Under the pieces are notes generated by a model that was not told where the DNA came from, did not search any database, and saw nothing but the letters and a program-made list of their open reading frames with translations. The position numbers were made by a program, and so were the translations under genes. A stretch of DNA of 64,000 nt from Minisyncoccota bacterium. Its GTDB lineage: Bacteria > Patescibacteriota > Minisyncoccia > Phycocordibacterales > UBA9973. Shown piece after piece: positions 19,037 through 62,792 of the stretch (its first letter is position 1; each line of letters starts with the position of its first letter). The stretch spans positions 14,002-78,001 of the forward strand of contig JBAZOQ010000001.1 in NCBI GenBank assembly GCA_041648595.1, given 5' to 3'.

Positions 19037-19059
19037 TTGCGGAAGCAAGACTTCCGCAA
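19037..19059 (+). repeat. REP-1 palindrome TTGCGGAAGCAAGACTTCCGCAA, immediately upstream of tRNA-Gly.
   Basis: Same palindrome family as the three copies around and inside the RAYT gene at 36.3-37.1 kb. Confidence 0.75.
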
Positions 19060-26179: not shown

Positions 26180-27382
26180 TTAGAGGCTAAGGTTTCCTTT
26201 GGCCTTTATGCTCGAGATTTTTGGTACTTTTTTCTTATTTTTTATAAATTGTAGATATCCAGCTACACCTATCATTATTGAATTATCTCCTGTTAATTTT
26301 TTTTCTGGGAAAAGTAATATAGTATTTTTTTCTACAATTTTTTTCATTTGTCTTTGTAAATGTTCATTACAAGATACACCACCAGCTACTATGATTGTTT
26401 TTGCTTTATATTTTTCTTTTGCTTTAATTGTTTTATAAATAAGAGTTTCTACTACAGCATTTTCAAATTCTAGTGCAATAGCTTGTTTTATTTTTTCATT
26501 TTGCCCGCCTGCCTCGTTATGCGAAGCATTTCGGGCAGGTAATATATTAGGATTTTCTTTTTTAAGGTCACGTATTAAATAAAGTACTGCAGTTTTTAAT
26601 CCTGAAAATGAAAAATCAAAATTTTTACTGTAGAGCATAGGGCGGGGAAGAGCGAAGGAAAAACAATCTTTGTGGGGTGTCTCGCAGGCTGACGAGCCGA
26701 GAGGCAGCGCTCCGCGAGCACGCGGAGACAGCGACCCCAGAAAGATTGGTTTTTCTGTAGCTCTTTTTTTTTCAGCTAATTTTGAAATTTCTGGTCCTCC
26801 TGGATAAGGCAGATCCATCATTCTAGCTACTTTGTCATATGCTTCTCCTGCAGCATCATCTAATGTTTGACCAATGATTTTGTATTGTAGCCAATTTTTT
26901 GAGAGTACAAGCTCTGTGTGCCCACCAGAAACGAGAAGAGATAAAATAGGGAATTCTATTTTAGGAATTGTAAAACTACCCTTGCTTTTAGCAAATACAG
27001 ATACTATATGTCCTTCCATGTGATTAACTGGTATAAGTGGTACATCCCATTTTTCTGCAAGTTCTTTTGCAAAAACTATTCCACTCCAAAGTGAAGGTTC
27101 TAGCCCTGGTCCATAAGTGACTGCTATTAGATCAACTGGTTTTTCTTTTTTAGCTAATTTGGATTTTTTAAGAGCTTTTTCTAATAGTATTGGTAAATTT
27201 TTTATATGTTCACGTTTTGCGAGCATAGGGAATACTCCACCATAAGGAGTATGAATTGCTATTTGTGAATTTGAAAAATTAGATAAAATATTAAATGAAG
27301 CAAAACCATTTTTATTGAGATTTGCATCCATTATTGTTATGGCTGTATCGTCACAGCTAGTTTCTATACTTAATATTTTCAT
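26180..27382 (-). CDS. tsaD: tRNA N6-adenosine threonylcarbamoyltransferase TsaD (Kae1/Gcp family) with a roughly 35-aa in-frame GC-rich insertion.
   Basis: MKILSIETSCDDTAITI, NHMEGHI, SGGHTELV, VAGGVSCN. The inserted segment is GSLSPRARGALPLGSSACETPHKDCFSFALPRP. Confidence 0.85.
   Translation of the reverse strand: MKILSIETSCDDTAITIMDANLNKNGFASFNILSNFSNSQIAIHTPYGGVFPMLAKREHIKNLPILLEKALKKSKLAKKEKPVDLIAVTYGPGLEPSLWSGIVFAKELAEKWDVPLIPVNHMEGHIVSVFAKSKGSFTIPKIEFPILSLLVSGGHTELVLSKNWLQYKIIGQTLDDAAGEAYDKVARMMDLPYPGGPEISKLAEKKRATEKPIFLGSLSPRARGALPLGSSACETPHKDCFSFALPRPMLYSKNFDFSFSGLKTAVLYLIRDLKKENPNILPARNASHNEAGGQNEKIKQAIALEFENAVVETLIYKTIKAKEKYKAKTIIVAGGVSCNEHLQRQMKKIVEKNTILLFPEKKLTGDNSIMIGVAGYLQFIKNKKKVPKISSIKAKGNLSL
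26638..26750 (-). repeat. GC-rich palindromic element of about 110 bp (family D core CGCAGGCTGACGAGCCGAG flanked by imperfect inverted repeats CAATCTTTGTGGGGTGTC / GACAGCGACCCCAGAAAGATTG) inserted in frame in tsaD.
   Basis: GC content far above the surrounding coding sequence. Shares its core with the intergenic element at 26097-26116. Confidence 0.65.
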
Positions 27383-27383
27383 G

Positions 27384-27457
27384 TGGGCGGTACAAGACTC
27401 GAACTTGTTGCCTCGTCGACGTCAACGACGCGCTCTAACCAAATGAGCTAACCGCCC
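27384..27457 (-). tRNA. tRNA-Val (anticodon GAC).
   Basis: The reverse complement folds as GGGCGGT acceptor, GCTC/GAGC D stem, anticodon loop TTGACGT, T arm ACAAG-TTCGAGT-CTTGT. Confidence 0.75.
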
Positions 27458-27466
27458 AAACTGTAA

Positions 27467-28213
27467 TTATACAGCGAACTTTTCTAATATTTCAAGTTCT
27501 TCTTTTGTGTTTGCTCCTAATGCTTCATGAGATTCTATTTGTATGGCTTCCACTTTTTTTCCTTCTTTTGAGGCTAAGTGAAGGAGATCTGTTAAATAAT
27601 ATTCATTCTGTATATTATTATTTTTTACTTTTTCTAAATTTTTCCAAAGCCATTTTGCATCAAAAGCATAACTTCCAGCATTTACTTCTTTTATTAATTT
27701 TTCTTTTTCATTAGCATCTTTGTATTCACGAATGCCTGTAATTTTCCCATCTTTTCTTAAAATTCTTCCAAAAGCAAGAAATCCTTTTCTCCAGTCTTTA
27801 AAATCTGACACTTCCGTCGTTGTAAATGTTATTTTAGTTTTTGCTTTTAGGTGTTTTTTTAATAAATTTTTTAATGTTTCTGAAGATATTAAAGGTTGGT
27901 CTCCAGATAAGACGATTATATGTTTTGCGTCATTACAATATTCTCTTGCACAAAATACAGCATGTCCAGTACCTAGTTGTTCTTCTTGTATTGCATAAAA
28001 ACAAGAATCTTTAAGTTCGGATTCCACTAATTCTTTATTATGTCCTATTATTGCTATCGGTTTTTGGTTGAATGCTTTTTTTGCTGATTTTAAAATGTAT
28101 TTTATCATTGGTTTACCGTTTAGTTTCAATAAAATTTTTGGCAAATCACTCTGCATTCTTTTACCTTTTCCTGCTGCTAATATTATTATTTTTATATCTT
28201 TTAAATTTTCCAT
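27467..28213 (-). CDS. Sugar-phosphate nucleotidyltransferase (GlmU N-terminal-domain-like, UDP-GlcNAc pyrophosphorylase-type).
   Basis: IIILAAGKGKRMQSDLPKILLKLNGKPMIKYIL matches the LAAGKGTRM nucleotidyltransferase signature. At 248 aa it lacks the acetyltransferase hexapeptide-repeat domain. Confidence 0.65.
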   Translation of the reverse strand: MENLKDIKIIILAAGKGKRMQSDLPKILLKLNGKPMIKYILKSAKKAFNQKPIAIIGHNKELVESELKDSCFYAIQEEQLGTGHAVFCAREYCNDAKHIIVLSGDQPLISSETLKNLLKKHLKAKTKITFTTTEVSDFKDWRKGFLAFGRILRKDGKITGIREYKDANEKEKLIKEVNAGSYAFDAKWLWKNLEKVKNNNIQNEYYLTDLLHLASKEGKKVEAIQIESHEALGANTKEELEILEKFAV

Positions 28214-28407
28214 AAAAATAAGCCCGAAGGCTTTATATTGAATATATTAGCATTTTATTTAAAATTTGACGAGTTTTTTGTAAAACAAACAAAAGGTAAA
28301 TAAGTTGATTAAATATGAAGAATTTATGAAGGATATTTGGTGATATTAGTAAAATATGTTATGGTATTTTTAGAAACGTTATTTATTAATTTTTTTGGGA
28401 GAAAACA

Positions 28408-28671
28408 ATGGAGTTTAACTTATTACGAAAAATTTCAGCTTATACAGTTGGGATTTTTATTTTTATAAAAATATTTTTTGATTCTTATTTTTGGAGTATC
28501 TGGATATATTTTAAATATATCCAAAAGGATTATAAAAAATTACAAGACAGAAAAATAAAAAAATTAGAGAATATATCTAATAAGTCACATATTTTTGCTT
28601 TTATATTATTTATTTTAGCAATAATTCTTTGGTGGGAAGTTTTGGTTTATTATGCGACACCAGCTTCCTGA
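28408..28671 (+). CDS. Hypothetical small membrane protein (87 aa).
   Basis: Two predicted TM helices. No recognisable motif. Confidence 0.3.
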   Translation: MEFNLLRKISAYTVGIFIFIKIFFDSYFWSIWIYFKYIQKDYKKLQDRKIKKLENISNKSHIFAFILFILAIILWWEVLVYYATPAS

Positions 28672-28712
28672 TATCGATTTTAAGTCTCGTCATTGCGACG
28701 GGGCTTTTTTAT

Positions 28713-28787
28713 TGGTGACCCTACCGGGAGTCGGACCCGGATTTAGTGCTTGAAAAGCACTCGTCCTAACCGTTAGACGATAGGGCC
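28713..28787 (-). tRNA. tRNA-Glu (anticodon UUC), CCA encoded.
   Basis: Reverse complement GGCCCTATCGTCTAACGGTTAGGACGAGTGCTTTTCAAGCACTAAATCCGGGTCCGACTCCCGGTAGGGTCACCA. Confidence 0.8.
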
Positions 28788-29018
28788 TATATAGTACATG
28801 TTATATTATTTTTGAAAAAACTGCAAAAAATGTTAGATTACATATTAGATAGGGTATAAGATAATGATGACGAACGTAGTATGGAGACGTGGGTATTAAG
28901 TATGAACTGCTTCATATTTAATCTGATTCTGCTTTTGCAGAAATGTCTAATATGCTTTAGCATGAAGACATAGGGAAGGGTCCGAGAGGGCACGAAGCCA
29001 TGGCGACGAGCATAGCGA

Positions 29019-29103
29019 GGAGACGTGGGTGAGTGGTTGAAACCACCGCTCTCGAAAAGCGGCATACCGCAAGGTATCGGAGGTTCAAATCCTCCCGTCT
29101 CCG
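29019..29103 (+). tRNA. tRNA-Ser (anticodon CGA) with a long variable arm.
   Basis: Acceptor GGAGACG/CGTCTCC, anticodon loop CTCGAAA, variable arm ATACC-GCAA-GGTAT, T arm GGAGG-TTCAAAT-CCTCC, discriminator G. Confidence 0.75.
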
Positions 29104-29107
29104 CAAA

Positions 29108-29150
29108 AGAAAAACCCGATGCACGTTTGTTTGTGTAAAGGGTTTTTTTT
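29108..29150 (+). terminator. Possible rho-independent terminator after tRNA-Ser (AAAAACCC ... GGGTTTTTTTT).
   Basis: Stem AAAACCC/GGGTTTT with a large loop, followed by a T run. Confidence 0.35.
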
Positions 29151-29460
29151 AAATCTGTTTTTTCTTTAAAGGTTTTTTATTTAAAAACCAATAAAGAAAA
29201 ATAAAAAACAAGATACTAACTCCAACGCCCAATATTTCTAAAATTGGTAGTAAATTAGAAATTATTATTTCTAGATAACTTCCAATTAAGATAGTCATTA
29301 TAGTATAAAAGATAATATGATCTTTTCTGTAAAAAATAATTTTTGTTTTAAGGTAAACAATAATTATTTTTATAAAAGAATAATCACCTTTACAGCTAAC
29401 ATTTTTATCTTCTATCCTAACAAAAGGGCTTGGAAGACTGTCATACTCTTCTTTTGTCAT
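29149..29460 (-). CDS. Hypothetical membrane protein (103 aa).
   Basis: ORF with predicted TM helices. No motif. Confidence 0.3.
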   Translation of the reverse strand: MTKEEYDSLPSPFVRIEDKNVSCKGDYSFIKIIIVYLKTKIIFYRKDHIIFYTIMTILIGSYLEIIISNLLPILEILGVGVSILFFIFLYWFLNKKPLKKKQI

Positions 29461-36325: not shown

Positions 36326-36347
36326 TTGCGGAAGCAAGGCTTCCGCA
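36326..36347 (+). repeat. REP-1 palindrome TTGCGGAAGCAAGGCTTCCGCA, immediately upstream of the RAYT gene.
   Basis: Perfect 9-bp arms GCGGAAGC/GCTTCCGC around CAAGG. Confidence 0.75.
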
Positions 36348-36361
36348 GTACTATAGTTAGT

Positions 36362-37063
36362 ATGGCGTATAGAAAAGCATCTTTTGTAGAAGGAGAATTT
36401 TATCATATTTATAATAGAGGAAATAGTAAACAAAAAATATTTTTAGATAATCATGATTATGATCGTTTTATAAAATTATTATATCTTTGTAATTCAGAAT
36501 ATAGTATTGATTTTCGTGAAGATATAGTAAGACAGGGAATTAATGCTTGGGATTTTGATCGTGGTGAATCTATAGTTTCAATAGGTGCATGGGTATTAAT
36601 GCCAAATCATTTTCATTTATATTTAAATATAAATCCGCGGAAGCAAGGCTTCCGCAAAGTTCGTATTAATGAAATTACAGAATTTATGCACAAACTTTTG
36701 ACATCTTATTCGAAGTATTTTAATACAAAATATAAACGTACAGGAGGATTATTTGAAGGTAAATTTAAATCAGTTCATATAGAGGATGATAATCAAGCAA
36801 AATATCTTTTTTCTTATATTCATTTGAATCCAGTCAAACTTATAGATAGTAAATGGAAAGAAAATGGAATAAAAAATAAAAAACAAACAAAAGATTTTTT
36901 GAATAAATATATATGGTCAAGTTATTTAGATTATAAAGGAATTACTCGTTCCCCAAATAAAATTTTAAATAAAAAGGCATTTCCAGAATACTTTCGTAAT
37001 ATGAAAGATTTTGATTTTGAAATAGGGGAGTGGCTTAATTTTTCGGATTCTGACTTAAATTAA
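36362..37063 (+). CDS. IS200/IS605-family HUH Y1 transposase, REP-associated tyrosine transposase (RAYT)-like. It contains an in-frame REP-1 copy (PRKQGFRK).
   Basis: N-terminal FVEGEFYHIYNRGN, HUH motif MPNHFHLYL, catalytic Tyr region KYLFSYIHLNPVK. Flanked on both sides by REP-1 palindromes. ATG 36362 is preferred over the track's TTG start at 36326, which lies inside the REP. Confidence 0.75.
   Translation: MAYRKASFVEGEFYHIYNRGNSKQKIFLDNHDYDRFIKLLYLCNSEYSIDFREDIVRQGINAWDFDRGESIVSIGAWVLMPNHFHLYLNINPRKQGFRKVRINEITEFMHKLLTSYSKYFNTKYKRTGGLFEGKFKSVHIEDDNQAKYLFSYIHLNPVKLIDSKWKENGIKNKKQTKDFLNKYIWSSYLDYKGITRSPNKILNKKAFPEYFRNMKDFDFEIGEWLNFSDSDLN
36635..36657 (+). repeat. REP-1 palindrome CCGCGGAAGCAAGGCTTCCGCAA inserted in frame within the RAYT gene.
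   Basis: Translated as NPRKQGFRKV directly after the HUH motif. Confidence 0.7.
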
Positions 37064-37096: not shown

Positions 37097-37119
37097 TTGC
37101 GGAAGCCAGGCTTCCGCAA
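37097..37119 (+). repeat. REP-1 palindrome TTGCGGAAGCCAGGCTTCCGCAA, immediately downstream of the RAYT gene.
   Basis: Read directly. Confidence 0.75.
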
Positions 37120-54956: not shown

Positions 54957-56762
54957 GTGAAAGAAGAAATACTAAAATTTTTTAATGGGGAAGTAGAAGA
55001 TAGCGAAGAAACACTTTTAAAATATTCGCGTGATGCGAGTATTTTTGAATTACGACCAAAGCTTGTTCTTTTCCCTTTGGACTCAAAAGATGTTCAGAAT
55101 TTAGTGAAATGGGTAAGTGAAAATAAAGATAAATATGCCGATCCTGAAAAAAATAAAGATTATAAAAATCTTTCCATTACTTGCAGATGCGCAGGAACAG
55201 ATATGTCAGGTGGTGCTATAGGTGAATCTTTGATTTTGGATTTCACTCGGCATATGAATAAGTTGATACGACCACCTCGCCCTTTGGGCACTCCTCCTTC
55301 AAAAGGAGGAGAAGATTTTTCTCCCCTCCTTGGTGAGGAGGGGGCTGGGGGTGGTGATTATTCCATCACTGTGCAGCCCGGTATGTTTTATCGAGATTTT
55401 GAAAAAATAACTTTAGAAAAAGGACTTATTTTGCCTTGTTACACTGCATCAAAGAGTTTGAATGCTATGGGTGGAATGTTTGGTAATAATTCGGCTGGAG
55501 AGCGAACTCTTAAATATGGGAAAACAGAAGATTATATTTTAGAAACAAAGATAGTTTTTTCTGATGGTAATGAATATATTATAAAACCATTAACTCAAAA
55601 TGAATTAACTAAAAAAATAATGCAGTCAAATTTTGAGAGTGAAATTTATAAAAATATTTATAATTTAATAAATGAAAATAAAGAAGAAATAAAAAATGCC
55701 AAACCAGCGGTCAGTAAAAATTCTGCAGGATATTATATTTGGAATGTAATTGGAGATTTTTTTGATTTAAACAAACTTTTAGTTGGTTCTCAAGGCACAT
55801 TGGGTATAGCTACCGAAATTACTTTTAAACTTGTTAAAAATCCTAAACATTCTAAACTTGTAGTTATTTTTGTTAATGGATTAGAACCATTGGGTCGTCT
55901 TGTGGATGAAATTTTACAATTTAAACCAGAAACACTTGAGACATATGATGATAAAACTATAAAATTAGCAGTTAGATTTTTTCCAGATTTTCTTAAAAAT
56001 AAAGGTCTTCTTGGTATGATAAAATTTATGTGGAGTTTTTTACCTGAATTGAAAATGATGTTCAATAGTCTTTTTGGGGGTGGTTTCCCAAAATTAATTA
56101 TTCTTGCAGAGTTTGCTGGTGAAGATGAATCTATGATAGACAGGCAATGTATTTCTTTAAAAGAAAAGATTTCCGCCAAAGGCGGACCAGCCTCAGGCTG
56201 GAAAAATATAAATGTTCATATTACAAAGTCAGAGATAGAAGCAAATAAATATTGGGATATTAGAAGAGAAAGTTTTTCTTTACTACGTAAACATGTCAAA
56301 GGTCTTCATACTGCTCCATTTATAGATGATATTATAGTTCGTCCAGAATTTTTGCCAAAATTTATTCCTGAGCTTAATCAAATTTTTTCAAAATATGATT
56401 TGAATTATACAATAGCAGGACATATAGGAGATGGTAATCTTCACGTCATTCCTCTTATGGATTTTAAACATCCTGATACACCTAAAATAATAATAGAACT
56501 TGGAGAGAAAGTGTATGATCTTATTATAAAATATCATGGTTCTATTACAGCAGAACACAATGATGGTATAGTTCGTACTTTATATTTAGAAAAAATGTAC
56601 GGGAAAAAGATGGTTGCAATTTTTGGAGAAATAAAAAAAATATTTGATTTGAAAAATATTTTTAATCCAGGTAAAAAAACATTTTCAGAAGATGGTGGTG
56701 GAACAAAAGAATATATGATTTCACATATTGCACTGGAACATAGCGTAATACATAAAGTTTAA
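54957..56762 (+). CDS. FAD-linked oxidase (PCMH-type FAD-binding domain plus FAD-oxidase C-terminal domain; glycolate oxidase GlcD / D-lactate dehydrogenase-like) with a roughly 30-aa GC-rich insertion.
   Basis: FAD-binding N-terminus and C-terminal GHIGDGNLHV. The insertion is RPPRPLGTPPSKGGEDFSPLLGEEGAGGGD. Confidence 0.7.
   Translation: MKEEILKFFNGEVEDSEETLLKYSRDASIFELRPKLVLFPLDSKDVQNLVKWVSENKDKYADPEKNKDYKNLSITCRCAGTDMSGGAIGESLILDFTRHMNKLIRPPRPLGTPPSKGGEDFSPLLGEEGAGGGDYSITVQPGMFYRDFEKITLEKGLILPCYTASKSLNAMGGMFGNNSAGERTLKYGKTEDYILETKIVFSDGNEYIIKPLTQNELTKKIMQSNFESEIYKNIYNLINENKEEIKNAKPAVSKNSAGYYIWNVIGDFFDLNKLLVGSQGTLGIATEITFKLVKNPKHSKLVVIFVNGLEPLGRLVDEILQFKPETLETYDDKTIKLAVRFFPDFLKNKGLLGMIKFMWSFLPELKMMFNSLFGGGFPKLIILAEFAGEDESMIDRQCISLKEKISAKGGPASGWKNINVHITKSEIEANKYWDIRRESFSLLRKHVKGLHTAPFIDDIIVRPEFLPKFIPELNQIFSKYDLNYTIAGHIGDGNLHVIPLMDFKHPDTPKIIIELGEKVYDLIIKYHGSITAEHNDGIVRTLYLEKMYGKKMVAIFGEIKKIFDLKNIFNPGKKTFSEDGGGTKEYMISHIALEHSVIHKV
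55271..55368 (+). repeat. GC-rich insertion of about 100 bp in the FAD oxidase gene, containing nested palindromes CTCCTCCTT-caa-AAGGAGGAG and CCCCTCC-ttggtga-GGAGGGG.
   Basis: Read directly. More than 60% GC against about 30% in the gene. Confidence 0.65.
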
Positions 56763-61981: not shown

Positions 61982-62209
<228 letters not shown>

Positions 62210-62212
62210 AAT

Positions 62213-62300
62213 TCCCCTCTTGAGGGGTGCCCCTCGGGCGGGGTGGATGAATATTTCCACCTCCCCCTAAAGGGTACTCCTCAAGAGGAGAATAAACCCA
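62213..62300 (+). promoter_or_regulatory. GC-rich structured intergenic element between atpE and atpF, with palindromes CCCCTCTTGAGGGG and CTCCTCAAGAGGAG and a GGTGGA..TCCACC stem.
   Basis: Read directly. More than 55% GC in a roughly 90-nt stretch. Confidence 0.45.
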
Positions 62301-62792
62301 ATGGATTCAATCATTAACACATTTCACATAGATTTTAAAATTATTATTGCTCAAATTTTTAATTTTGTGATAGTTTTTGTTGTTTTATACATATATGCTC
62401 TTAAGCCATTAAATAAATTAATGAAGGAGCGTTCTGAAAAAATATCAAAAGGTATTGATGATGCTAAAATAAATGCAGAAATTTTAAATAATACAAAAGC
62501 AGAATATGAAGAAGTTTTAGTAAAAGCTCGTAATGAAGCATATAAGATATGGGAAGTTGGAAAAAAAGAATCAGAAGCAAAAAAAATTTTAATGTTAGAA
62601 AAAGCAAAAGAAGAAGTTGATATTATGATAGATAATGGAAAAAAGAATCTTGAAAATGAAAAAATAAAAATGGTAGCCGAAGCCAGAGAAGAAATCACTA
62701 CTCTTTCCATAAAAATAGCAGAAAAAATACTTGGTAAAAATTTAGATAAAAATTTTGATGAGAAAACAATGAAAGAATTAAATAATATATAA
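62301..62792 (+). CDS. atpF: F0F1 ATP synthase subunit b.
   Basis: N-terminal TM helix then a long charged helix. Position in the operon. Confidence 0.75.
   Translation: MDSIINTFHIDFKIIIAQIFNFVIVFVVLYIYALKPLNKLMKERSEKISKGIDDAKINAEILNNTKAEYEEVLVKARNEAYKIWEVGKKESEAKKILMLEKAKEEVDIMIDNGKKNLENEKIKMVAEAREEITTLSIKIAEKILGKNLDKNFDEKTMKELNNI

What the first reader, a model, noticed from the sequence alone, without database searches (positions are those of the whole stretch)
55271..55368. Roughly 100-bp GC-rich nested-palindrome insertion in the FAD-linked oxidase gene
The segment translates to RPPRPLGTPPSKGGEDFSPLLGEEGAGGGD between conserved parts of the FAD-binding domain. It contains the hairpins CTCCTCCTT/AAGGAGGAG and CCCCTCC/GGAGGGG. 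It is related in style, though not in sequence, to the atpE-atpF intergenic element (CCCCTCTTGAGGGG / CTCCTCAAGAGGAG at 62213-62300).
Basis: seen in the sequence. Interest (0 to 1): 0.5.

Follow-up and report, generated by a model that had tools for sequence, protein, structure and literature searches.

The report
In-frame selfish GC-rich hairpin repeat
The GC-rich palindrome inside this FAD-oxidase gene is a real, in-frame copy of a small repeated DNA element that occurs in almost every bacterial phylum, whose full-length relatives carry a DUF559 endonuclease gene, and which in these tiny AT-rich (CPR/Paceibacteria) genomes sits inside housekeeping genes much as the palindromic elements of Rickettsia do.

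Summary
Window 55272-55356 is an 85-nt, 59% GC nested palindrome in a 31% GC genome. It lies in frame in a D-lactate-dehydrogenase-like FAD oxidase (54957-56762). It is an insertion: 45 of 120 orthologues have an empty site and only 5 carry this arrangement. It maps to a low-confidence coil between two strands of the FAD-binding domain.

It consists of two inverted ~35-40-nt units, each with a head CCACCYC, a small hairpin and a CYCCTCC/GGAGGRG hairpin.

The unit is pan-bacterial. In CPR-like contigs, copies lie in frame in FtsK, UvrB, RsmA, PheT and GatB. The only protein family that recurs beside units is DUF559, a Vsr-like PD-(D/E)XK endonuclease, typically bracketed by two inverted units.

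Best reading: a non-autonomous, MITE-like copy of a selfish cassette family, tolerated in a permissive loop and behaving like a Rickettsia palindromic element. The mobilisation mechanism is inferred, not shown. No Rfam family or paper describing it was found.

The parts
54957..56762 (+). Host gene: FAD-linked oxidase (VAO/PCMH fold, D-lactate-dehydrogenase-like), 601 aa, intact reading frame
   Evidence: ORF. Pfam PF01565 + PF02913. AF2 model with pTM 0.86; best PDB matches are 7qh2_C and 8jds, D-lactate dehydrogenases.
55272..55311 (+). Unit A: head CCACCTC (55272-55278), hairpin 1 GCCC-TTT-GGGC (55279-55289), hairpin 2 CTCCTCCTT-CAA-AAGGAGGAG (55291-55311). Encodes PPRPLGTPPSKGGE.
   Evidence: Aligns with units from other loci and phyla.
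55312..55322 (.). Junction between the two units (AAGATTTTTCT), where the hairpin-2 ends abut
   Evidence: The equivalent junctions in L003, L007, L153 and L219 differ in length and sequence.
55323..55356 (-). Unit B in inverted orientation, lacking hairpin 1: hairpin 2 CCCCTCCT-TGGTG-AGGAGGGG (55323-55343) and head complement GGGGGTGG(TG) (55347-55356). Encodes SPLLGEEGAGGG.
   Evidence: Its head pairs with the head of unit A as the outer stem in the predicted folds.
62210..62293 (.). Second copy of the same family, filling the atpE-atpF spacer: inverted unit (62214-62246), AT spacer ATGAATATTT (62247-62256), direct unit (62257-62292). The heads face inward and the termini are AATTCCCCTC...GAGGAGAAT.
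   Evidence: The spacer is only 2 nt in the syntenic L005. The right-hand unit is 100% identical to a copy in a different spacer (L31-RF1) of another genome, L008 14017-14052.

Best explanation
Window 55272-55356 is a non-autonomous, MITE-like copy of a dispersed selfish DNA repeat. It consists of two inverted ~35-40-nt GC-rich double-hairpin units.

Shown:
- The unit family is repeated within this genome, including in the atpE-atpF spacer.
- It occurs in related CPR genomes at non-orthologous sites.
- It occurs in nearly all bacterial phyla.
- In its fullest form, two inverted units bracket a ~110-aa DUF559 (Vsr-like PD-(D/E)XK) endonuclease ORF.
- The copy here is an insertion that keeps the reading frame and has no stop codon in the frame used.
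- It lies in a predicted disordered loop between two beta-strands of the FAD-binding domain. In orthologues this loop has accepted at least five or six different inserts.

Inferred:
- The segment is translated as a flexible Gly/Pro/Glu-rich surface loop that the enzyme tolerates.
- It persists because it is harmless there. In a compact genome with almost no spacers, only in-frame copies in permissive loops survive selection.
- Its spread depends on the hairpin ends being recognised as structured DNA. A DUF559 endonuclease supplied in trans would make a break, and a unit-bearing copy would then be copied in by repair. Alternatively, the unit pairs act as landing pads for the DUF559 cassette.
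- I infer no benefit to the host.

The confidence of 0.7 is for the 'in-frame copy of a dispersed selfish repeat' reading. The specific DUF559-driven mobilisation step I would put at about 0.4.
For: Insertion status:
- 45 of 120 orthologues have an empty site.
- The empty-site DNA in L009 is AT-rich with no trace of the element.
- Pfam and PDB alignments break at the insert.
- In the AF2 model residues 110-134 are coil with pLDDT 48-57, between strands 103-109 and 135-139.

Repeat family:
- The window holds 4 units in 2 loci, against 0 in 30 shuffles.
- An identical unit sits in a different spacer of L008.
- A single unit lies in frame in gatB of L005 and is absent from three orthologues.
- In-frame copies occur in FtsK (two), UvrB (two), RsmA and PheT of CPR-like contigs, in more than one frame and orientation.

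Independent events at this loop:
- The A-B order occurs at three separate places in the orthologue tree, with different junctions.
- The B-A order occurs in P0116, single units in six proteins, and an unrelated MITE in eleven.

Pan-bacterial spread:
- 22 viral contigs match the unit pattern.

DUF559 link:
- It is the only protein family recurring beside units in unrelated loci, seen in 15 loci.
- 14 of 15 domains lie within 150 nt of a unit and 9 of 15 are flanked on both sides. The binomial P is about 1e-13 at a 10% chance rate.
- Pfam PF04480 scores E 1e-29 to 1e-35.
- One AT-rich (33% GC) contig carrying the CPR-type unit variant has a DUF559 ORF abutting a pair.

Structural constraint:
- Hairpin 1 is paired in 94% of cells, and all 4 pairs show changes on both sides. 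None of 500 shuffles reached this.
- The element's DNA is more conserved than the host gene around it: 96.5% vs 84-86%, 81% vs 70%, 85% vs 74%.
Against: - No DUF559 gene lies in the 64-kb window, and the rest of the genome could not be read.
- In the one AT-rich contig carrying the CPR-type unit variant (L181), the DUF559 ORF lies beside a complete unit pair rather than between two units.
- No clear target-site duplication or precise empty/filled junction was found. At the FAD-oxidase and gatB sites the insert appears to replace 6-9 nt.
- The order here, with heads outward (A-B), is the reverse of the canonical cassette ends, with heads inward. I have only speculative explanations: abutted ends of two elements, or of a circular form.
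- PD-(D/E)XK nucleases of this family are not known transposases.
- Translation of the segment and activity of the enzyme are not shown.
- My hairpin-1 covariation set was hand-picked for diversity.
Confidence: 0.7

Rival explanations
1. The unit pairs are the primary repeat, spread by some other unknown means. DUF559 genes are secondary invaders: homing-type endonuclease genes that use the repeat as a multi-copy landing site, with the two half-repeats providing the homology for repair.
For: Only about 5% of the loci holding units carry DUF559. The ORF always sits between the two inward-facing heads, where a cut at the centre of a heads-inward pair would place it. In L181 an intact pair lies next to the ORF. 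Vsr/DUF559-fold enzymes include a known homing endonuclease (PMC3424549).
Against: This leaves the dispersal of the units themselves unexplained. No other candidate mobilising protein recurs near units. A low ratio of autonomous to non-autonomous copies is equally typical of MITEs.
Confidence: 0.2
2. It is a REP/REPIN-type element: a GC-rich imperfect palindrome doublet mobilised by a RAYT (IS200/IS605-like HUH tyrosine transposase).
For: The units are short GC-rich imperfect palindromes. They often occur as inverted doublets that can fold into one long hairpin. Hairpin structure is conserved by compensatory change.
Against: This copy and many CPR copies are intragenic, whereas REPs are by definition extragenic. 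The sequence is nearly the same across phyla, whereas REPs are lineage-specific. Clustering of all ORFs within 500 nt of units in about 260 loci gave DUF559 as the only family that recurs across unrelated loci and found no transposase cluster. The other multi-locus clusters come from redundant, apparently orthologous human-gut loci.
Confidence: 0.07
3. The segment has a function for the host. Either it is an mRNA or DNA structure (translational pause, transcript-stabilising hairpin, protein-binding site), or it is a lineage-specific protein loop under selection.
For: The element's DNA is more conserved than its surroundings. The predicted RNA structure is very stable, at -51 kcal/mol. In the atp operon the copy sits just after atpE, where a stabilising hairpin could plausibly raise c-subunit expression; this last point is inference.
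Against: The same DNA occurs in unrelated genes, in spacers, in both orientations and in several frames. Close orthologues (79% identity) do without it. The peptide is predicted to be disordered. Different, unrelated inserts occupy the same loop in other lineages.
Confidence: 0.06
4. It is not a mobile element at all: a local low-complexity expansion or slippage product, or an assembly artefact.
For: The peptide is of low complexity. No target-site duplication was seen.
Against: The same arrangement was recovered in independent assemblies (P0001 in 2 contigs; P0002 in two NCBI MAGs). Near-identical units occur at unrelated loci and in unrelated phyla. The structure is far beyond chance.
Confidence: 0.02

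Closest known systems
Rickettsia palindromic elements (RPEs)
   Same: Both are short (~100-150 bp) palindromic repeats inserted in frame into unrelated housekeeping genes as well as spacers. Both are translated with the host protein, at positions compatible with its fold, in small reduced genomes (review PMC10969869). Here the hosts are the FAD oxidase, GatB, FtsK, UvrB, RsmA and PheT.
   Different: No sequence relation is claimed. RPEs are confined to Rickettsia and its relatives, whereas this unit is found across bacterial phyla. This element is strongly GC-rich in an AT-rich genome. It is modular, occurring as single units, heads-in pairs and heads-out pairs. It has a candidate protein partner (DUF559), which RPEs lack.
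REP / BIME / REPIN elements with RAYT transposases
   Same: GC-rich imperfect palindromes of 20-40 nt, frequently as inverted doublets that fold into a longer hairpin, with structure conserved by compensatory changes.
   Different: REPs are extragenic and lineage-specific, and are linked to a Y1 HUH transposase. Here copies are intragenic, the sequence is shared across phyla, and the recurrent neighbour is a PD-(D/E)XK (DUF559) protein.
GC clusters of yeast mitochondria and double-hairpin elements of Allomyces mitochondria (from my own knowledge; the papers were not retrieved)
   Same: GC-rich hairpin or double-hairpin repeats scattered in a very AT-rich genome. Some lie in frame within coding regions, and in Allomyces they are found next to mobile endonuclease ORFs.
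   Different: Those are organellar and eukaryotic and have unrelated sequences. Their endonucleases are of the LAGLIDADG/GIY-YIG kinds, not DUF559.
Vsr-fold homing endonucleases (e.g. the group-I-intron enzyme grouped with Vsr/DUF559 in PMC3424549)
   Same: Full-length relatives of this element encode a Vsr/DUF559-fold nuclease (Pfam) and behave as insertions in otherwise conserved genes: N6_N4 methylase, Type ISP specificity domain, SpoU methylase.
   Different: There is no intron or intein around them. The cassette is read through in frame or stands free, and it is bounded by 35-45-nt hairpin inverted repeats. The window copy has no ORF at all.
Classical bacterial MITEs (Correia/NEMIS, ERIC, Nezha)
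   Same: Short, ORF-less, with terminal inverted repeats; far more numerous than the ORF-bearing form; occasionally fused in frame with genes (PMC10969869).
   Different: No target-site duplication was seen, and no DDE transposase parent is known. Units also occur singly and in the reversed order.

Membership tests
Rickettsia palindromic elements | Repeated palindromic element of roughly 100-150 bp, present at many unrelated loci | tested here: met
   An 85-nt nested palindrome. Copies at 2 window loci and in GatB, FtsK, UvrB, RsmA, PheT and spacers of related genomes.
Rickettsia palindromic elements | Insertion in frame in protein-coding genes, compatible with the host fold | tested here: met
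   The reading frame is intact. The insert is a low-pLDDT coil between two strands. Pfam domains of the host genes remain detectable around the inserts.
Rickettsia palindromic elements | Sequence similarity to RPE-1 to RPE-10 consensus; Rickettsiales host | not tested
   No RPE consensus was available in the tools. The host is CPR/Paceibacterota and the unit is pan-bacterial. I file it as working like an RPE, not as a member.
REP/REPIN-RAYT | Extragenic location | tested here: not met
   This copy and about half of the CPR-type copies lie inside ORFs.
REP/REPIN-RAYT | Cognate RAYT (Y1 transposase) gene flanked by the repeats | tested here: not met
   Clustering of all ORFs within 500 nt of units in about 260 loci gave DUF559 as the only family that recurs across unrelated loci and found no transposase-like cluster. 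Whole genomes were not surveyed.
REP/REPIN-RAYT | GC-rich imperfect palindrome, often in inverted doublets | tested here: met
MITE (TIR/TSD type) | Terminal inverted repeats | tested here: met
   Heads-inward pairs have 35-45-nt inverted ends, AATTCCCCTCC...GGAGGGGAATT. The window gene copy is an inverted pair in the opposite order.
MITE (TIR/TSD type) | Target-site duplication | tested here: inconclusive
   Comparing filled and empty sites at four loci shows no clear duplication. Both spacer insertions lie in TAA|A contexts, and the in-gene insertions replace 6-9 nt.
MITE (TIR/TSD type) | Related autonomous element with the same ends | tested here: inconclusive
   DUF559 cassettes share the ends, but DUF559 is not a known transposase and its activity on these ends is untested.
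DUF559 / Vsr-fold endonuclease cassette | Encodes a PF04480 domain | tested here: not met
   There is no DUF559 ORF in the element or anywhere in the window. Full-length relatives elsewhere do encode it. The window copy is at most an ORF-less derivative.
DUF559 / Vsr-fold endonuclease cassette | The endonuclease cuts unit-bearing or empty target DNA | not testable with these tools
   Needs biochemistry.
Intein / mini-intein | N-terminal Cys/Ser and C-terminal His-Asn + Cys/Ser/Thr splice junctions; Hint fold | tested here: not met
   The insert is about 26-30 aa, RPPRP...GGGDYS, with no splice-junction residues. The same DNA also occurs in spacers.

The most novel reading that the evidence does not exclude
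The ~37-nt double-hairpin unit and the DUF559 ORF together form a previously unrecognised class of mobile element. It would be a tiny cassette (~0.5 kb) driven by a Vsr-fold PD-(D/E)XK endonuclease and bounded by structured GC-rich ends. It would have crossed essentially all bacterial phyla and left thousands of ORF-less copies. Because those copies are free of stop codons, they can live inside essential genes. The two unit orders seen (heads in, heads out) could be the two ways of opening a circular intermediate.
Probability: 0.3. Interest if true: 0.8.

Novelty: new variant of a known kind. Interest (0 to 1): 0.6.

Why it matters
- It extends the Rickettsia phenomenon of selfish DNA inside protein-coding genes to the Candidate Phyla Radiation, where spacers are almost absent. 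It also shows that housekeeping proteins there (FtsK, UvrB, GatB, PheT, RsmA, this oxidase) carry repeat-derived loops. This matters for annotation, domain detection, phylogenetic alignment and structure prediction of CPR proteins.
- The same 37-nt motif recurs almost unchanged from Bacteroides to cyanobacteria, Chlamydiota and CPR. That is unusual for bacterial repeats and points to a shared, cross-phylum mobilising machinery.
- The motif gives DUF559, a large domain family of unknown function, a concrete and testable role as the nuclease of a mobile cassette with defined DNA ends.
- Practically, translations of the motif (SPPxxGGVPEGRGG, PPRPSGTPPxxGGE) probably underlie many spurious small ORFs in databases. 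This last point rests on my own recollection and was not tested.

Tried and rejected
- Rfam: at gathering thresholds on the whole window, and at E<=1 on six canonical loci and on 26400-29200, no family covers the element.
- Literature: searches for the motif strings, for RPE-like elements in CPR and for DUF559 found no description.
- UNCG tetraloop idea: I first read the hairpin-1 loop as an RNA UNCG tetraloop. With a 4-bp stem the loop is a triloop (TTC/TGC/TAC/TCC), so I dropped that argument.
- Hairpin-2 covariation: fixed-length counts were out of register because loop lengths vary. I discarded them and kept only hairpin 1.
- Covariance model: MAFFT misaligned the 3' arm of hairpin 2, so I used a custom scanner with shuffled controls instead.
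A 49-aa composite found no candidates, not even P0001, so the word index does not serve such low-complexity queries. This negative result is uninformative.
- BLASTN of a Serratia DUF559 cassette against plasmids and E. coli genomes: no match.
- P0015 (empty site): the DNA could not be fetched because the file was too large.
- Intein, intron and slippage readings were rejected (see membership tests and rivals).
Full report
**1. The observation**

The window is 30.8% GC. At 55272-55356 lies an 85-nt segment of 59% GC, inside a 601-aa ORF (54957-56762, +) with Pfam FAD_binding_4 and FAD-oxidase_C domains.

There is also a 4-bp hairpin, GCCC-TTT-GGGC (55279-55289). An outer stem joins CCACCTCG at the left end to GGGGGTGG at the right end, so the whole is a closed multi-branch structure. 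Predicted energies are -25.2 kcal/mol as DNA (z -4.9) and -51.1 kcal/mol as RNA (z -4.1). None of 200 shuffles folded as well.

**2. It is an insertion**

- Pfam's FAD_binding_4 profile matches only residues 136-205, corresponding to profile positions 65-134.
- phmmer against solved D-lactate dehydrogenases restarts at residue 135.
- I aligned the 120 best orthologues, at 64-100% identity, all from Paceibacterota/Nomurabacteria-type sources. The stretch between HMNKLI and ITVQPGMFYRDFEK is hypervariable.
- Site states among the 120: 45 empty (e.g. ISFNGDK), 5 with this arrangement, 1 with the two halves in the opposite order, 6 with a single related unit (FPPSPLQGEGRGEV), 11 with an unrelated palindromic insert, and the rest with other loops.
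- The empty-site DNA of L009 (79% identical protein) is plain AT-rich sequence.
- In an AlphaFold2 model (mean pLDDT 81.9, pTM 0.86) residues 110-134 are coil with pLDDT 48-57, between strands 103-109 and 135-139.
- The fold is VAO/PCMH, closest to FAD-dependent D-lactate dehydrogenases.

**3. Anatomy: a modular unit**

DNA from orthologous loci shows the insert is made of a ~35-40-nt unit, U. The unit has three parts:
- a head, CCACCYC;
- a small hairpin 1 (GCCC-TTY-GGGC);
- after one A, hairpin 2 (CYCCTCC-loop-GGAGGRG).

The window insert is U (55272-55311), an 11-nt junction, and an inverted U lacking hairpin 1 (55323-55356). The heads face outward. In L005 (Nomurabacteria GW2011_GWA2_40_9) the same codon site holds the two units in the other order, heads inward, with an 11-nt AT spacer.

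The atpE-atpF spacer (62210-62293, between atpE 62000-62209 and atpF 62301-62792) is inverted U + ATGAATATTT + U, with heads inward. Its right-hand unit, CCACCTCCCCCTAAAGGGTACTCCTCAAGAGGAG, is 100% identical to a unit in the L31-RF1 spacer of another genome (L008). In syntenic L005 the atpE-atpF gap is 2 nt. The two window elements therefore belong to one family.

A purpose-built scanner finds exactly these 4 units in the window and none in 30 Markov shuffles.

**4. Dispersal, including inside other genes**

- L005 carries a single unit in frame in gatB (FSPPARGGVSEGRGGGS). This 14-aa insert is absent from three orthologues.
- A metagenome scan with a narrower pattern (CCTCGCCCTTNNGGCACTCCYCC) recovered CCACCTCGCCC...CACTCCTCC copies both heads-inward (at least 12 loci) and heads-outward (at least 7 loci).
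- About half of these copies lie inside long ORFs. Pfam identifies the hosts as FtsK (two copies, one inside the motor domain), UvrB (two copies), RsmA/KsgA and PheT.
- Different reading frames and both orientations are used: PPRPSGTPPxxGGE, TTSPFGHSSSTRRR, SPPARGGVSEGRGG. The insertions are therefore a DNA-level phenomenon, not a protein module.
- In the orthologue tree the A-B insert occurs in three separate places (the P0001-3 clade, P0034, P0104) with different junctions. P0104 keeps a KFMDDIPKK loop upstream. This argues for repeated hits on the same permissive loop.
- A second hot spot lies between IWNV and FDLNK. It is empty in the window but carries another palindromic insert family in 48 of 120 orthologues.

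**5. The unit is pan-bacterial**

The pattern CCACCYCSCCCN{3,4}GGGNACYCCYCN{2,9}GRGGRG matched 22 IMG/VR contigs. Matching taxa include:
- Chlamydiota, Verrucomicrobiota and Planctomycetes;
- Cyanobacteria (Nodosilinea PCC 7104, Chamaesiphon);
- Bacteroidota (Bacteroides rodentium, Flavobacterium, Pedobacter);
- Chloroflexota, Acidobacteriota, Nitrospirae and Fibrobacter;
- Firmicutes;
- Proteobacteria (Serratia microhaemolytica);
- Paceibacterota.

Host GC content ranges from 30% to 70%. Sequence variants co-vary between head and hairpin 2: CCACCCC.../CCCCTCC, CCACCTC.../CTCCTCC and CCCCCTC.../CTCCCCC.

Hairpin 1 keeps its pairing through changes on both sides, e.g. GGTC-TTC-GACC, GTCT-TTC-AGAC and GACGC-AA-GCGTC. 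It is paired in 94% of cells, all 4 pairs show double changes, and none of 500 shuffles reached the observed score. That set was hand-picked for diversity.

The element's DNA is more conserved than the host gene around it: 96.5% vs 84-86% (L001), 81% vs 70% (L003) and 85% vs 74% (L007). This fits either constraint on the structure or a more recent origin than the host alleles.

**6. The DUF559 link**

While checking which non-CPR copies lie in long ORFs (18 of 165), I saw that several unit pairs bracket a ~110-aa domain. Pfam identifies it as DUF559 (PF04480, E 1e-29 to 1e-35). This is a Vsr-like PD-(D/E)XK nuclease family, which a published survey groups with Vsr and a group-I-intron homing endonuclease (PMC3424549).

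The canonical layout has three parts:
- left end: AATTCCCCTCC-loop-GGAGGGG-T-hairpin1-GGGGTGG;
- middle: 13-68 nt, then the DUF559 ORF;
- right end: CCACCCC-hairpin1-CACCCCTCC-loop-GGAGGGGAATT.

This layout is found free-standing (L030, L096, L054). It is also found read through in frame inside an N6_N4 DNA methylase, a Type ISP specificity domain (which it splits) and ahead of a SpoU methylase. L047 is also free-standing, but both of its flanking units are in the direct orientation.

An unbiased clustering of all ORFs within 500 nt of units in about 260 loci gave DUF559 as the only family recurring in unrelated loci (15 loci). No transposase cluster appeared. Of 15 complete DUF559 domains, 14 lie within 150 nt of a unit and 9 are flanked on both sides. 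One AT-rich (33% GC) contig carrying the CPR-type unit variant has a DUF559 ORF abutting a complete pair. The window itself has no DUF559.

A paper on programmed inversions lists 'DUF559 domain-containing protein' among the gene families most enriched for flanking inverted repeats (PMC9881135). This fits these ends, but that paper does not describe the cassette.

**7. Interpretation**

Shown: the segment is an in-frame copy of a dispersed, structured, cross-phylum repeat, located in a permissive loop.

Inferred: it is a non-autonomous relative of DUF559 cassettes. It spreads through recognition of its hairpin ends by that nuclease followed by repair-copying, or else the pairs serve as landing pads for the cassette. 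It is translated as a disordered loop and is neutral to the host.

Weak points:
- No target duplication or exact junction was found.
- The heads-outward order is unexplained. It may represent abutted ends of two elements or of a circular form; this is speculation.
- No DUF559 gene is seen in this genome fragment.
- There is no direct evidence of translation.

Rival readings are a RAYT-mobilised REP, a host function, and an artefact. Section 6 and argue against them.

**8. Comparison with what is known, and novelty**

Functionally the closest match is the Rickettsia palindromic element: an in-frame palindromic repeat in housekeeping genes of a reduced genome (PMC10969869). Structurally it resembles REP/REPIN doublets. 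In its GC-rich-hairpin-in-AT-rich-genome character and its association with endonuclease ORFs, it recalls yeast mitochondrial GC clusters and Allomyces double-hairpin elements (from my own knowledge).

It is not a member of any of these by sequence, host range or partner protein. Rfam has no family for it. Full-text searches found no description of it in CPR or of DUF559 cassettes with these ends. It may still be catalogued under another name in papers outside the library.

I rate it a new variant of a known kind, with interest 0.6. The finding as given is an RPE-like insertion and would be moderately interesting on its own. The pan-bacterial unit and its DUF559 link raise that interest.

Noticed in passing
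Orthologues of window 54957-56762. The site corresponds to window aa ~267 (nt ~55750-55760), empty in the window. Example: L001 5568-5670.: There is a second in-frame insertion hot spot between IWNV and FDLNK. 48 of 120 orthologues carry a different ~90-nt palindromic MITE-like family, giving peptides KNSSGLTLPGVPGGTHTVQNS, KNFSGPRISGAPNPGQTIQN and NFLETAPSESRGQGTHTFLEN (probably the same DNA in several frames). The L001 copy has perfect 18-nt inverted ends, AAAAATTCCCCAGCAAAT. The same family also occupies the first hot spot in 11 orthologues, and a similar copy sits in the L31-RF1 spacer of L001.
   Followed up: partly
L010-L031, e.g. L012:7983, L014:4537, L017:11570, L022, L028, L029: In many non-CPR copies the 5' flank of the unit is a short tandem repeat of about 7 nt, such as GGGGTTA, GACGTTA, GTTAGTT, TAAATTA, CTGAAAAC or GATTGCC. 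The repeat differs from locus to locus and ends in ...AAC just before CCACCCC. I have no explanation.
   Followed up: no
window 26639-26764: A GC-rich (up to 73%) island with a long imperfect hairpin (AAAACAATCTTTGTGGGG...CCCCAGAAAGATTGGTTTTT) enclosing CTGACGAG...GAAA-like motifs. There is no Rfam match even at E<=1. It may be an uncatalogued structured RNA.
   Followed up: partly
window 19037-19059, 36327-36347, 36637-36655, 37097-37119: Four copies of a small perfect hairpin, (TT)GCGGAAGC-AAG-GCTTCCGC(AA), flanked by AT-rich sequence. One lies just upstream of tRNA-Gly. This could be another repeat family, or terminators or binding sites.
   Followed up: no
window 28958-29018: A GC-rich (~60%) stretch lies immediately upstream of tRNA-Ser (29019-29104). 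It has no Rfam match at E<=1.
   Followed up: partly
L008 6241-7722 (gatB): The L008 GatB has a different ~17-aa insert (PEAQLRGVGVSPKLGFGEE) at another position relative to its orthologues. This suggests further insert families in CPR housekeeping genes.
   Followed up: no
window 55291-55343 and all unit copies: Hairpin 2 consists of a perfect Shine-Dalgarno-like GGAGG paired to an anti-SD-like CCTCC, and the head CCACCTCC resembles the 3' end of 16S rRNA. The reverse strand has four G-runs (GGAGGGG-T-GCCCGAAGGGC-GGGG-T-GGG) that could form a G-quadruplex. Neither point was tested.
   Followed up: no
L110 3147-3211 (Nitrospirae MAG): Here the unit occurs as a single perfect 59-nt palindrome, CCACCCCGCCCTTCGGGCACCCCTCCTT-AAA-AAGGAGGGGTGCCCGAAGGGCGGGGTGG. 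The two units share one hairpin 2 with their heads outward. This is the extreme form of the order seen in the window gene.
   Followed up: no
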